DNA of 64,000 nucleotides. It comes from Zootoca vivipara (Eukaryota). Positions 58,795 through 64,000 of the stretch are shown in pieces. A program made the position numbers. Positions within the stretch are counted from its first letter, which is position 1. Each line of letters starts with the position of its first letter. The DNA is taken from the NCBI RefSeq assembly GCF_963506605.1, contig NC_083277.1, forward strand, positions 117,428,001 through 117,492,000, given 5' to 3'.

Positions 58795-61700
58795 TAGTGC
58801 CTTGGATGACTAATACACTTTCAGAAAGGATCCTGAAACTCGTCCAGTCAGCCAGTTTAACAAAGCAGGTAAAACCATTTGTGAAGGGTAGAACTTGCAA
58901 ATAATTGAGGGCTATTGTGGCAGAGTGGCCAAGAGTCTAGGACTGCAGTCTTGCACATATTATAAGACATGTCTTATATTTATTTTTTCCTCAAAAAAAC
59001 ACACTATGGCTTATTTTCAAGGGATGTCTTATTTTTTTCCTCCTCCTTCTGCCGTGGCCGGCATTGCTGCTACGCCTATCACTATGTCTTATTTTCGGGG
59101 TATGGCTTATATTCCTTGAATGCTTAAAAATCCTGCTATGGCTTATTTTATGGGTATGTCTTAAAATATGAGAAACAGGGTAAGTCCTATTGAACTCAGT
59201 AGGGCTTCGTTTGAGTAGACATGCATAGAAATGCATGGTAAAGGGGTCATGTGTAAGTTGCACTGTAAGAAGCTTGATTCTAGTCTTGCATCTGCCATGA
59301 GCTTTCTAGGTAGCCTTAGAAAAGCCAATATCTCTAAACTTCAGGGCCCCCCCCCCAAAAAAAATCTGCAGTATGGGATAATAATGCTGGCTGCCCTTAC
59401 AATGTTGCTGTAAGGGTTAATGAGACAATGTGTGGAAAATACTTGGAACTTGCCATATAAACGTTATCATGACTTTGAGAAATTGAGATAAATACTTTGA
59501 AATTTTCCTCTTGTGCTCTTACCACGTGTAGTCTCCTCGAAGTTGGATGAGTTGCATGGTCTCTCTCTGGAACATGGCAGTAGCATGCTTGATGTGAATC
59601 ACAAGCTGGATAAACACTGCTATCCCACCACATTTTGAAGGTTTTTAGACTACAAAATGCTAAAACTACTAACAACAGCGTCTGATTTTTGTGTGTATGC
59701 TAACGTTGGGTGATTACTAAATGAAACATTAGAGAAATGAGGATCTTAACCTACGTCAAATTCTAGATACTTGCTTAATGACTTGGGAAGGTTTTCTTCT
59801 TTTTGGCCTTTTGTGCTGGAGTAAACTCTGTGTGTTTTAAAGGATCTGTATATGGTTTGTTTCCCAATCATGCTTCCACGTTAACAAATGGTTTGATGTG
59901 TAAGAATTCTTCAGGAAGAAGGAGGCAGGTGGCTTAGTAAGAACCAAAGGATACAACCCCTTCATATTTTTAAACCTGTGTGAGACAGTTGGGAATTGGG
60001 ATGTTAATGATCATGCATCACTACTTTGTGACACATGTTTCTTTTTGCAAATTGGTGGTGACCACTGTTTAAGGTCGGAGAGGTGGTGACTCTGGTGTGA
60101 CTGAAATGGGGACCTGAAACCTACTAGATGTCAAGTGGATAACTTTCTAATCCACTCACTAACACTGCCTATCTTAAGCACAGAGCAGGGAATCGACGTT
60201 TTGTGACTGCAAGCCAAAAGATTACAACATAATTTGGCATTTACCAAGCATCCTGAACTTGGCAGTAACAGCTGATAGATGTGTTGACTGTGAAAGGGTG
60301 GAGCAGAATTTTCAGCTGATACTGCATTTAAAAATCTAATTGTATTCTGAAGTGTGTGTGTGTGTTTGTGCGTACCTGCATCCTTCTTATTTGGGACATG
60401 CTAACTCTAAACCTTCCCTGTGTATTGTGTCTCCAGTTATCTGTCTTGAAGGTATCATGGATGCTGGTTAGCAGAGAACCAGGTCTCCTTGAATGCTACA
60501 TTTCTGCCTTGCCGCTTAGGGAACACTGCATGACTTTGTGACTGGGTCTCTCCTATACACACACCTACGCATGGGGATGCTGTACACTGCATGACTGGTA
60601 AATGCAATGACTTCTGTCCAAGGGGTGTGAGAGTTTCTCTTAGACAGGGAGGAAACACACAAGTTCGGTTGGATAAACAAATGAAGCTGTATAGAATGGA
60701 GCAGTTTCTCTGAAGCAGACAGAAACTGTCTGCCTGTCCATATTGTGGATGTCGTGGTGTTGAATGGCCTACCAAATCTTAGCAAAGTCTATACTGGTTT
60801 TCAGCTTTGCTTCTGGCCCATTAGAAAGTTATGCCAAGGCACCTGTGTTGCAGAGAAGAGATTGCTGTAAGTGCCAGTGACACATTAGACAGAATTCTAT
60901 GAGGTTATTGGGGCACAGCAAATAAATTTTGCTTTGCTCCAGTCAAGCTTTGCTGCTGGTTCTTGGATGTAAGAAGTGGGAAAGAAGACACACAGCAGTT
61001 TTGCCAGAGCCACCCACACTGAATGTAGAAGCAAGATAGGAGGAGACAGAAGAACTGATACAACTAGTTCCAAATCCAGTGCATCATCCATTCTTCTTCA
61101 TATTTACCACAGTCTGGTGCATGAATATGCCCTTCTGTCCTCAAAGGCACTGGCTAATATTGTGATACAAATGGGAAAAATTTTTAACTGCTTCCTCTGC
61201 TAGTGGTAGCTACATTTTTAAAAAAACTGTACTGACTTCCATCCGTTTTATCCCATTATGAAGTGGTTGCATGCATGACCACTGTGACGCGGTAAACTTG
61301 GCCTAGATTGGCTTTTGATACATCAGCGCTAACATTTAGAAGCTGATGTCAGCTGAGTTACGACTGTTAGTGTGATGACACCAAATCCTCATGATAGCTA
61401 GGAAACAACTTAAATTGTCAGTTTCCTCTCCAGAGTAGATTATCCCTATAATGCTTCATACATTAAGGTTTTTATTAGTCCGGGTGCCATTTGTCTCTGG
61501 GCTGCTGAGGATGCTACTGATTGCTAATCACCTCACGAGGCATGTGCAGACTGTTGGGTTTCCTGAGTGGTATCTGAACAGTTGACACTATTTCAGTAAC
61601 TCTACCCCCAGTTCCTGGGGTCCCTATGGAAGTGATGCGGACAGCTGAGGAGTCCAAACCAGTTGCCACCAAGAATCCTGAGGTGGCAGGCAAGGGTTCT

Positions 61701-64000
61701 CAGGCTGGGACTGCTCTAGAGTCATCAGGTAGGTTTCAAGTTAAAACAGCAAGATGGGGTTGAAATTACTTCATTTTAATTTTTAAAATGAATTTTTTGA
61801 TTAAAAAAAACTCTAGAATGAATCAGGGCTCCAGAACTACCAGCTTTGTTTAAGCTGAGATCTTGTTTCCTGGTGGTCAAAGAAATAAGTAAATGTACAT
61901 ACTTGAAACATACATTTCTGCTGATCAAATATACTACTGCAAGAGTTAACAGCTGTTAAGTATGGTATGCAGGTCTTCCTAAGAAGGCATTTCCATGGTT
62001 TGCTTGCGATGTCCCTGGGTGTACTGCTTGTGGTATATAATTTGCAGTAGACCTAGGGAAAATGTCACATCTCAGTGATTCCAAGTTTCAGATGATGATG
62101 ATGATTTATTACTGCTTTTTTGCGAGACGGGGGATGGTGAGCCACCATAAAGGTTAACGCCATCCTTTAGAATGACTACTAGTTTGAATGCCTGCACTTT
62201 GATGGTGCTGCTCTTTTAGGCTAGATCGTGTTTTAGCTAAAATGTCATAGTTTAATTTTAAGAAATTGTTTAGCTTTCTTAGCATGAATCTTATAACTTT
62301 CTGGTTATATGTAGTTCTTTGCCCCTTCCTTGTTTAACTTTTTTTTGGGGGGGGGGGTGAGAGGGAATCCTCATTCCATTATCTTGCTCTCCCATTGTAT
62401 ACCTATTTTCCCAGTCACTTCCCAAGAACTGATGCACAGCAGTGGGTAGCTGTAGACAACTGACCACTTAAAGTTCAGTGACCAACACAAATTATATAGT
62501 AATTCCTTTGCCTTCTTTTCTTCATCTGCTTAGTAGAAACATCACCCAGAATCTACAATTAAGGATTGTTTAGTAACTCATTCGTGAGAGACAGTTATGA
62601 TTATTGAAGCCAGCTCTCTCATTGAACAGAGGCTTCTAGCATTCTTACTGGAAATAAGGAAAATCTTGAAGTAGTGAATTGGTGTTAGTGTAGTCTGAGC
62701 ACTTGCTCAATCTGGCATTTATATCACCTTCCTGCTAAATCTATGCCTTGAATTCTGGTTGTCTCAGTCCTGCTATGAAGCCCATGCATTAGAGTGAATT
62801 CTCACACTAGTAAAAGCCTTTTTTGTACTCATCTGCTAGTCTTAGGTGATGAGTCCAAAAAGAGACCCTTGATCCCCTCAGAATCTTTTATCATGTTGTA
62901 ATATAGCCATTTTGTTTTTTACTGCCCTTATGAAGGTCAATCACAGTGTTAAGGAAGTAGCTCCTAAATTCCTGTTTCTGGAATGCTAAGATCCTTCTGC
63001 TTAAGTTGCATGTGATAGACTTCTTTCTCATGCAGCCATACATTAATATAACATGTGCTGGGCTCCTCTTCCCTGCATGATCTCACTGAGCAGTGTGCTT
63101 CTGGCTTCATTTAAAGCAGTTTATGCTCATCAGATTTGCAGACATTCCTAGTGCAGCTACCTACTCTCAGGCCACACATATACCGGTAGTTAAGATTAGT
63201 TAATCCACCATTTAATGCTTTGATGAAACATCACTGAGTGACTCATTCTTTAAAAAGTTTGGGTGGATGCTAGCAGTGTAAGTTGTAGCTTGCATGTCTC
63301 ATTTAGGTTTGAATAATGCCAGGCCTGAAGTTGAAGGCATCTTACGTAGTTCCGGGATAGACAGCTCCCAGTAGACTTAATTTGTCATTTTGACTAAGCC
63401 AAGAGAATAGAACCTTCTAGATGGTTCTAGCCCCAAGCTTATTGGTTTGTCATTAATAACCTATTGCTCTTGCTCATTTAGCTCCTGCCACTCCAAACCC
63501 TTTTGCTGGTGCTTCTGAAGCACCTGCAGCCTGTTTTTCTCAGCTTCCTGTTCAAGCACCAGGTATTTGCTGTTAGTCCCTATGTATGTCTCCTTAACAA
63601 TATTTTGCTGTGCTGTGTTGATGCAGTTACATTAACCATAGTATTTAGCAACAAAAAAAAGACTTGGTTTAAGGAGACTCCTGAGTTCTATTCTTCGCTC
63701 TTCAGCTGACATAGATCATATACAAGTTACTGTGTAGAATACAAACCTCTAGGTAGGAAATGTTTTATGGACTGATCTGCCATCTAGATTACCAGAGAGA
63801 GGGTTTGATTTTTTTTCTGTGGCTGCTTGCTGTTGACAGGCACACAGAATTGGTATGAAAAGTTATGTGGTACCTTGCATTGCTGTCCCAATATCTGTTT
63901 CAAAGAATACTGGCATTTTGTGGTTCCTGGGATGCCAGTGGCTACACCTTGAAATTACATGTGACTTGTGTGAAGATCTTGCTTTGATCGCCCCTGCTTA

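What the first reader, a model, noticed from the sequence alone, without database searches (positions are those of the whole stretch)
61597..63562. Modular, multi-cassette skNAC-like architecture instead of one giant exon
Seen: two more stop-free phase 1-1 exon candidates (61597-61728, 44 codons; 63482-63562, 27 codons, Pro/Ala-rich) with good splice sites, in an intron stretch almost free of the transposons that fill the rest of the window. Established: mammalian muscle skNAC arises by including a very large Pro-rich exon after this same NACA exon. Inference: this lizard has a series of small frame-preserving cassettes that could combine into many N-terminal isoforms. A giant exon may still follow beyond the window.
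Basis: partly seen in the sequence, partly recalled or inferred. Interest (0 to 1): 0.7.

Follow-up and report, generated by a model that had tools for sequence, protein, structure and literature searches.

The report
Two annotated alternative NACA coding exons
Two short stretches in a lizard's NACA gene are real, conserved alternative coding exons, but the public annotation of this species already has them, so the finding is correct and fairly ordinary.

Summary
Both are AG/GT-bounded, stop-free and phase 1-1. They lie in the intron after the NACA start-codon exon (58721-58792), which ends in phase 1.

They are real exons. The RefSeq model 'NACA isoform X6 [Zootoca vivipara]' (P0001, 286 aa) reads exon 2 + cassette A + cassette B + GSGTESDSDES. 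It is 100% identical to all three window exons.

Cassette A recurs at 65-91% identity, and cassette B at 54-76%, in named NACA models of Rhineura, Anolis, Varanus, Eublepharis (A only), Python and other snakes. All length differences keep the reading frame.

Models use A alone, A+B, A+B plus a PXLXP-bearing exon, or A+B plus a ~900-aa Pro/Ser/Ala-rich segment. So the cassettes are modular. In snakes they lead into the large skNAC segment rather than replace it. For this lizard that segment lies beyond the window and stayed unchecked.

No homologue was detected outside squamates. Tissue specificity is untested.

Verdict: real, already annotated, not described in the papers I could search. Interest is low to moderate.

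The parts
58721..58792 (+). NACA exon with the start codon (ATG at 58723). It encodes [23 protein letters not shown] and ends with one G, so it ends in phase 1. Acceptor cccAG, donor GTTAGT.
   Evidence: sequence and translation; tblastn of P0001 residues 1-23 to 58723-58791, 100% identity.
61597..61728 (+). Cassette A: an alternative coding exon of 132 nt (44 codons), phase 1-1. The split codons read G|TA = Val at its start and G|CT = Ala into cassette B. Two other in-frame acceptors exist at 61582 and 61612.
   Evidence: 100% identical to residues 25-67 of Zootoca vivipara NACA isoform X6 (P0001), and 65-91% identical in other squamate NACA models.
63482..63562 (+). Cassette B: an alternative coding exon of 81 nt (27 codons), phase 1-1, Pro/Ala-rich. 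Its last G begins the Gly of GSGTESD in the next exon, which lies beyond the window.
   Evidence: 100% identical to residues 69-94 of P0001, and 54-76% identical in Rhineura, Varanus, Python and other snakes; alignment of 9 squamate copies.
57040..57095 (+). Putative non-coding first exon of NACA. Its 3' end is inferred from the donor aca|GTAAGT at 57096, in a G+C-rich stretch. The 5' end is not determined.
   Evidence: Read from the sequence only. G+C is 0.552 in 56001-58000. There is no transcript evidence, so this is inference.
58793..61596 (+). Intron between the start-codon exon and cassette A. It carries 7 of the 10 sense-strand TGCATG motifs in 58793-64000.
   Evidence: 10 observed against a shuffle mean of 2.9, and 0 of 500 shuffles reach 10; none of the 10 squamate isoforms maps here.
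61729..63481 (+). Intron between cassettes A and B. It has TGCATG at 63007, 63074 and 63291 and no match to repeats elsewhere in the window.

Best explanation
The two candidates are genuine, conserved, alternatively included coding exons of NACA. The lizard is a lacertid; the window's exons are identical to the Zootoca vivipara model. They sit in the same intron position where mammals insert the muscle-specific skNAC exon.

Both exons are phase 1-1. Any combination therefore splices in frame between residue 23 (…QPQAET) and residue 24 (GSGTESD…) of ordinary alpha-NAC. Together they add 44 + 27 residues of Pro/Ala/Gly/Ser/Glu-rich sequence that matches no Pfam family. I infer it is disordered. 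The insertion lies in the N-terminal tail and leaves the NAC and UBA domains untouched.

In snakes the same two exons are followed by a ~900-aa Pro/Ser/Ala-rich segment and by a small exon carrying the PPLIP (PXLXP) motif, which in mouse skNAC binds the SMYD1 MYND domain. The cassettes are thus most likely the leading modules of a multi-exon squamate skNAC block. Skipping the later modules gives short 'A' or 'A+B' isoforms that lack the SMYD1-binding motif.

Shown: exon boundaries, phase, identity to the public model, conservation across squamates, and combinatorial use in predicted models.
Inferred: that the long form exists in this lizard, that inclusion is regulated in muscle and heart, that the peptide is disordered, and that RBFOX takes part.
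For: -: boundaries, phase and split codons.
- 10 of 23 candidates scored E<=0.01. All 10 are named NACA isoforms of squamates, and the best is Zootoca vivipara X6 at 100% identity and 100% coverage.
- P0001 reads exon 2 + A + B + GSGTESD exactly as the window predicts, including Val and Ala at the split codons.
- tblastn places P0001 on the three window exons and nowhere else at a meaningful E-value.
- A is 65-91% and B 54-76% identical across Rhineura, Anolis, Varanus, Eublepharis, Python and colubroid, elapid and viperid snakes. Length differences are 2, 5 and +1 aa in A, and 7 and 1 aa in B. Each is flanked on both sides by conserved residues, so the frame is kept.
- snake long isoforms run A, B, the large segment, DDELPPLIPPE…KNDK, then GSGTESD.
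- Pseudonaja X2 and X4 differ by one Ala exactly at the end of B. This marks the same exon boundary as in the window.
- (passages of PMC10340688): PXLXP binds the SMYD1 MYND domain.
- no Pfam family for either peptide.
- the sense strand of the intron is enriched in TGCATG.
Against: - No transcript data were available. All isoforms are automatic predictions whose RNA support I could not see.
- No long lacertid isoform was found, though both searches were capped at 2000 aa (77-2000 aa; 502-2000 aa, nothing found). One search listed only 120 of 353 hits. The giant segment in this species is therefore inferred from snakes.
- From sequence alone cassette B is no better than chance candidates, and A has a weak acceptor.
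- Within 300 nt of either cassette there is no enrichment of GTGTG-type, YGCY, TGTGT or TCTT motifs.
- TGCATG was singled out after I had looked at six motif classes.
- Neither cassette contains a PxLxP motif, so on their own they cannot supply the SMYD1 contact known for skNAC.
Confidence: 0.85

Rival explanations
1. The lizard truly lacks a giant skNAC exon, and the small cassettes are its whole muscle-type insertion. This is the reading in the first reader's title.
For: The only lacertid model retrieved (P0001) has A+B and nothing more. No long lacertid isoform appeared.
Against: All eight named long snake models carry B followed by a large segment, and A precedes B wherever the N-terminus is present. 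The label 'X6' suggests that other, probably longer, models exist for Zootoca; that rests on my recollection of NCBI's numbering habit. Searches were capped at 2000-2169 aa, and only 120 of 353 hits were listed. Large insertions are present from sharks to mammals.
Confidence: 0.1
2. The exons are real only as constitutive parts of the long muscle isoform. The short A-only and A+B isoforms are prediction artefacts or splicing noise, so there is no functional combinatorial repertoire.
For: All short isoforms are automatic models. Their abundance is unknown. The weak acceptor of A would fit low inclusion outside a specialised tissue.
Against: A-only or A+B models were produced independently for at least five genera: Zootoca, Rhineura, Anolis, Varanus and Python. 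Two unnamed 59-60 aa fragments (P0011, P0012) show A read through its donor, which at least shows the exon is picked up repeatedly.
Confidence: 0.25
3. The candidates are chance open frames, or conserved non-coding elements mis-modelled as exons.
For: By sequence criteria alone B is at chance level. There is no protein domain.
Against: Amino-acid conservation of 65-91% (A) and 54-76% (B) extends across squamate lineages as far apart as geckos, lacertids, iguanians and snakes. Only frame-keeping length changes occur, and exon ends are retained. A-grade candidates are about 400 times rarer in shuffles.
Confidence: 0.03

Closest known systems
RefSeq predicted model 'nascent polypeptide-associated complex subunit alpha isoform X6 [Zootoca vivipara]' (P0001), with the sibling squamate models P0002-P0010
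   Same: It is identical over all three window exons and has the same order, exon 2, A, B, GSGTESD. The other squamate models carry orthologous A and B.
   Different: Nothing differs in sequence. The model is an automatic prediction, and I saw no experimental record or paper about it.
Mammalian skNAC (muscle-specific NACA isoform, one ~6 kb exon 3, 2,187 residues in mouse)
   Same: The insertion point is the same, after …QPQAET and before GSGTESD. Composition is low-complexity and Pro-rich. Inclusion is alternative (passages; mammalian models).
   Different: The cassettes are 44 and 27 codons, not ~2000. They show no detectable similarity to the mammalian insertion. They carry no PXLXP motif, which in squamates sits on a separate later exon. 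Regulation by Rbm24/Rbm20 is not tested here, and no GTGTG lies within 300 nt downstream of either cassette.
Multi-isoform NACA muscle-type regions predicted in amphibians, fishes and sharks (e.g. Hyla sarda X8/X22/X28, Mixophyes fleayi X41/X43, Lissotriton X2-X14, Scyliorhinus X2/X3)
   Same: The large insertion is used in blocks. Isoforms of one species differ by in-frame blocks of 8-128 aa, so modular use of this region is widespread in public models.
   Different: The blocks are not detectably homologous to A or B. A short motif, PEVA[SG]xxSQ, is shared with one frog species and one shark at the same position. It was found post hoc and is not significant in the profile search.

Membership tests
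Coding exons of NACA | Lies inside the NACA transcription unit, on the sense strand, downstream of the start-codon exon | tested here: met
   Exon 2 at 58721-58792 encodes [23 protein letters not shown]. The cassettes lie 2.8 and 4.7 kb downstream on the same strand.
Coding exons of NACA | AG/GT boundaries and a phase compatible with the flanking exons | tested here: met
   Both are phase 1-1 and exon 2 ends in phase 1. The split codons give Val and Ala, exactly as in P0001.
Coding exons of NACA | Present in a public gene model or transcript | tested here: met
   100% identity to Zootoca vivipara isoform X6. The model is automatic; its RNA support was not visible to me.
Coding exons of NACA | Purifying selection at the codon level (dN/dS < 1) | not testable with these tools
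   No squamate genomic DNA other than the window was available. Only protein-level conservation (65-91% for A, 54-76% for B) and frame-keeping indels were seen.
skNAC (muscle-specific NACA isoform) | Insertion between …QPQAET and GSGTESD… | tested here: met
   the junction is the same as in the mammalian models.
skNAC (muscle-specific NACA isoform) | Very large Pro-rich insertion (~6 kb exon in mammals) | tested here: inconclusive
   It is not in the window, which ends 438 bases after B. It follows A+B in snakes. No long lacertid model was retrieved.
skNAC (muscle-specific NACA isoform) | PXLXP motif that binds the SMYD1 MYND domain | tested here: not met
   Neither cassette peptide contains P-x-L-x-P (read from the translations). 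In squamates the motif (PPLIP) lies in DDELPPLIPPE on a later exon. The motif's role comes from passages of PMC10340688.
skNAC (muscle-specific NACA isoform) | Inclusion specific to skeletal and cardiac muscle and dependent on Rbm24/Rbm20 | not testable with these tools
   No expression data. The motif scan shows no GTGTG within 300 nt downstream of either cassette. TGCATG is enriched in the intron, which is only suggestive.

The most novel reading that the evidence does not exclude
Squamates split the skNAC insertion into independently usable modules: A, B, a large spacer, a ~17-aa piece, and a PXLXP exon. Tissues could then make 'mini-skNAC' forms. Some would keep the SMYD1-binding motif without the spacer (Python X3, Eublepharis X3). 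Others would extend the alpha-NAC tail without any SMYD1 contact (Zootoca X6). Cassette A, with its PEVA[SG]xxSQ core also seen at the same position in a frog and a shark, could be a remnant of an ancestral multi-exon gnathostome arrangement. On that view the single giant mammalian exon arose by intron loss.
Probability: 0.2. Interest if true: 0.45.

Novelty: already known. Interest (0 to 1): 0.25.

Why it matters
[quoted passage not shown] If squamates and other non-mammals build the insertion from separable modules, natural isoforms would exist that separate three things: the N-terminal tail extension, the long spacer and the SMYD1-binding motif. That would be a ready-made dissection of skNAC function.

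As it stands, the two exons are already in the public annotation of this species. The gain here is confirmation, their placement as the leading modules of the block, and the correction that they do not replace the large segment.

Tried and rejected
- Cassette B alone could not be searched in the large protein set, because 26 aa is below the 40-aa minimum. It was judged only against proteins already returned.
- The representative-library search with cassette A gave only two unnamed 59-60 aa fragments. That library collapses isoforms, so it says little about other taxa.
Cluster contents and other Zootoca isoforms stayed unseen.
- A search for long proteins carrying cassette A found nothing (P0001 residues 24-67, 502-2000 aa). 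This is weak evidence, since even Python X2 was missed.
- Profiles of squamate A (10 sequences) and B (9 sequences) against 104 non-squamate long NACA models gave nothing better than the reversed-sequence control. The frog, shark and salamander resemblances seen by BLAST (E 0.009-0.013 in a 124-protein set, composition correction off) are not established. No bird, turtle or crocodilian model was among the 120 listed, so those groups stayed unchecked.
- Splicing-factor motifs near the cassettes show no local enrichment.
- Rfam found no RNA family in 55000-64000.
- The only repeat family inside 58793-64000 is a three-copy 38-nt family at 58994-59163.
- Literature searches found nothing on small NACA cassette exons or on skNAC structure in reptiles: 'skNAC + exon + alternative splicing' (19 papers), 'skNAC + zebrafish + exon' (32 papers), 'skNAC + vertebrates + isoforms + conserved' (11 papers) and 'NACA + cassette exon + muscle' (2 papers). 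I saw only the listings, plus passages of three papers. Supplements were not seen.
- The joined exon 2 + A + B model was not searched. The exons were searched one at a time.
No orthologous DNA could be compared and no dN/dS computed.
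Full report
**What is there.** The window carries the 5' end of NACA on the + strand.
- A G+C-rich stretch (0.552 in 56001-58000) precedes a likely non-coding first exon that ends at 57095. Its donor GTAAGT is read, and this exon is inference only.
- The start-codon exon is 58721-58792. It encodes [23 protein letters not shown] and ends with a single G, so it ends in phase 1.
61597-61728 is 132 nt and 63482-63562 is 81 nt. Both are bounded by AG and GT, stop-free and phase 1-1.
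- With the G carried over, they read VTLPP…ALESS (44 codons) and APATPNPF…VQAP (27 codons).

**More than chance?** I scored splice sites with a crude yardstick whose frequencies I recalled from memory.
- Cassette A has a strong donor but a weak acceptor. Cassette B is middling.
- Candidates as good as A are far rarer in controls: 2 observed, sharing one donor, against 0 on the antisense strand and a mean of 0.005 in 200 shuffles.
- Candidates as good as B occur at 0.46-0.64 per 5.2 kb elsewhere in the window.
- So the sequence alone would not establish B.

**Homology settles it.** I searched exon by exon and did not search the joined exon 2 + A + B model.
- Cassette A found 10 proteins at E<=0.01 among 23 candidates. 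All 10 are named squamate NACA isoforms.
- The best is 'isoform X6 [Zootoca vivipara]' (P0001, 286 aa) at 100% identity. Its sequence reads exon 2, A, B, then GSGTESDSDES…, including the Val and Ala predicted for the split codons.
- tblastn places P0001 at 58723-58791 (100% identity), with high-scoring alignments spanning 61597-61728 and 63482-63562. blastp shows both cassette peptides 100% identical to P0001. No other part of the window matches at a convincing E-value.
- The window therefore comes from Zootoca vivipara or a very close lacertid. It is not human.
- Cassette B (26 aa) was too short to search alone.

**Conservation.**
- A is 91% identical in Rhineura, 82% in Varanus, 80% in Eublepharis, 77-79% in Anolis and 74% in Python. 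It is 65-70% identical in colubroid, elapid and viperid snakes, which carry a 5-aa deletion.
- B is 76% identical in Rhineura (with a 7-aa deletion), 64% in Varanus, 60% in Python and 54% in other snakes.
- Conserved residues flank every length change on both sides, so the frame is kept in the genomes and not just in the models.
- These lineages span most of crown Squamata (recalled taxonomy).
- No codon-level test was possible because no other squamate DNA was available.

**Architecture.** Public models use the modules in combination.
- A alone: Rhineura X9, Anolis sagrei X2, Python X4.
- A+B: Zootoca X6, Rhineura X8, Varanus X7.
- A+B plus DDELPPLIPPE…KNDK: Python X3.
- A plus APEVSPKP…IE plus the same PXLXP piece: Eublepharis X3.
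- A+B plus a ~900-aa Pro/Ser/Ala-rich segment plus the PXLXP piece: Python X2 and the other long snake models.

Three further points bear on the boundaries.
- Pseudonaja X2 and X4 differ by one Ala exactly at the end of B, and by a 110-aa block inside the large segment.
- The PPLIP motif corresponds to the PXLXP motif through which mouse skNAC binds the SMYD1 MYND domain (passages of PMC10340688).
- Neither A nor B contains such a motif, and neither matches a Pfam family.

So the cassettes are the first modules of a multi-exon skNAC-type block. They do not replace the large segment. Whether this lizard has that segment stayed unchecked. The window ends 438 bases after B, and no long lacertid model was retrieved. 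Searches were capped at 2000 aa, one search listed 120 of 353 hits, and one search was unavailable.

**Beyond squamates.**
- Mammalian models continue QPQAET|AVLPVSS… with no detectable similarity to A or B.
- Profiles of squamate A and B against 104 non-squamate long NACA models gave nothing above a reversed-sequence control.
- The representative library returned only two short unnamed fragments.
- A post-hoc motif, PEVA[SG]xxSQ, sits at the same position in two isoforms of the frog Mixophyes and in the shark Carcharodon. It was found in 20 of 124 proteins, always within residues 13-57. That is a lead, not a result.
- Frogs, newts, sharks and fishes have many predicted isoforms that differ by in-frame blocks of 8-128 aa. 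Modular use of this region is therefore common in public models.
- Birds, turtles and crocodilians were not in the set.

**Regulation.** In mammals Rbm24 and Rbm20 drive inclusion of the ~6 kb exon 3 (passages of the bioRxiv preprint 10.1101/2025.10.23.684272, and of PMC7532667).
- I found no GTGTG-type, YGCY, TGTGT or TCTT enrichment within 300 nt of the cassettes.
- TGCATG, the RBFOX motif (recalled), occurs 10 times on the sense strand of 58793-64000. The shuffle mean is 2.9 and 0 of 500 shuffles reach 10. The antisense strand has 5, and the rest of the window has 1.6-2.2 per 5.2 kb.
- I noticed this after testing six motif classes, so it is only suggestive of regulated splicing.

**Surroundings.**
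- The intron has few matches to repeats elsewhere in the window. It has one small three-copy repeat and no Rfam family.
- Upstream of NACA lie PRIM1 exons (31090-45680, + strand) and three short-chain-dehydrogenase exons. There are also a reverse-transcriptase fragment and a GIY-YIG fragment. The rest of the window is therefore not only transposons.

**Literature.** Four searches listed nothing on small NACA cassette exons or on reptile skNAC. I read only the listings and passages of three papers, and supplements were closed.

**Verdict.** The feature is already in the public annotation of this species, so novelty is 'already known'. The modest open question is whether the short modular isoforms have a function.

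Noticed in passing
window 31090-45680 (+): Exons of PRIM1 (DNA primase small subunit) lie directly upstream of NACA, at 31090-31251, 31635-31751, 33107-33178, 35281-35418, 36339-36455, 38359-38457, 41039-41182, 42299-42433 and 45579-45680. They were found by tblastn with fish PRIM1-NACA read-through models. The region upstream of NACA is a gene, not only transposons.
   Followed up: partly
window 4270-4821 (-), 7992-8534 (+), 20547-20987 (-): Three open frames match the N-terminal part of the short-chain dehydrogenase family (adh_short, E 1e-7 to 4e-10). They look like first coding exons of tandem or inverted SDR genes. Mammals have retinol and 17-beta-hydroxysteroid dehydrogenase genes near PRIM1-NACA, but that synteny is recalled and was not tested.
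   Followed up: no
window 1446-2201 (+) and 41690-42229 (-): A reverse-transcriptase fragment (RVT_1, E 1e-14) and a GIY-YIG nuclease fragment (E 1e-5) were found. The second lies inside a PRIM1 intron and may belong to a Penelope-like element; that attribution is recalled.
   Followed up: no
window 58793-64000 (+), positions 59232, 59553, 60527, 60588, 61118, 61268, 61272, 63007, 63074, 63291: TGCATG occurs 10 times on the sense strand of the intron that holds the cassettes. The shuffle mean is 2.9 and 0 of 500 shuffles reach 10. I picked it out after scanning six motif classes.
   Followed up: partly
window 55290-55420 and 58400-58535: One short interspersed element is present in two copies in opposite orientation: upstream of the NACA promoter and in intron 1. 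This was read by eye. One search found 151 of 1623 intron-1 bases matching elsewhere in the window.
   Followed up: no
window 58994-59163 (+): Three copies of a 38-nt unit (68-79% identical to the reference copy) lie just downstream of exon 2. Stretches overlapping this region (58948-59031 and 59076-59177) also match 2849-2932 and 4153-4254.
   Followed up: no
window 51361-51530: A run of 170 N. It was left untouched.
   Followed up: no
P0013 (Pantherophis X3) residues 24-34; P0005 (Varanus X7) residue 1; window 61582 and 61612: Pantherophis X3 has 11 extra residues between exon 2 and cassette A. Varanus X7 starts with a Met directly before A, which suggests another first exon. In the window, in-frame alternative acceptors for A exist at 61582 and 61612.
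   Followed up: no
P0055/P0056 (Mixophyes) residues 54-63; P0105 (Carcharodon) residues 57-66: A frog and a shark carry PEVASEASQ / TEVASEASQ at the position where squamates have PEVAGKGSQ in cassette A. The profile search does not support it.
   Followed up: partly
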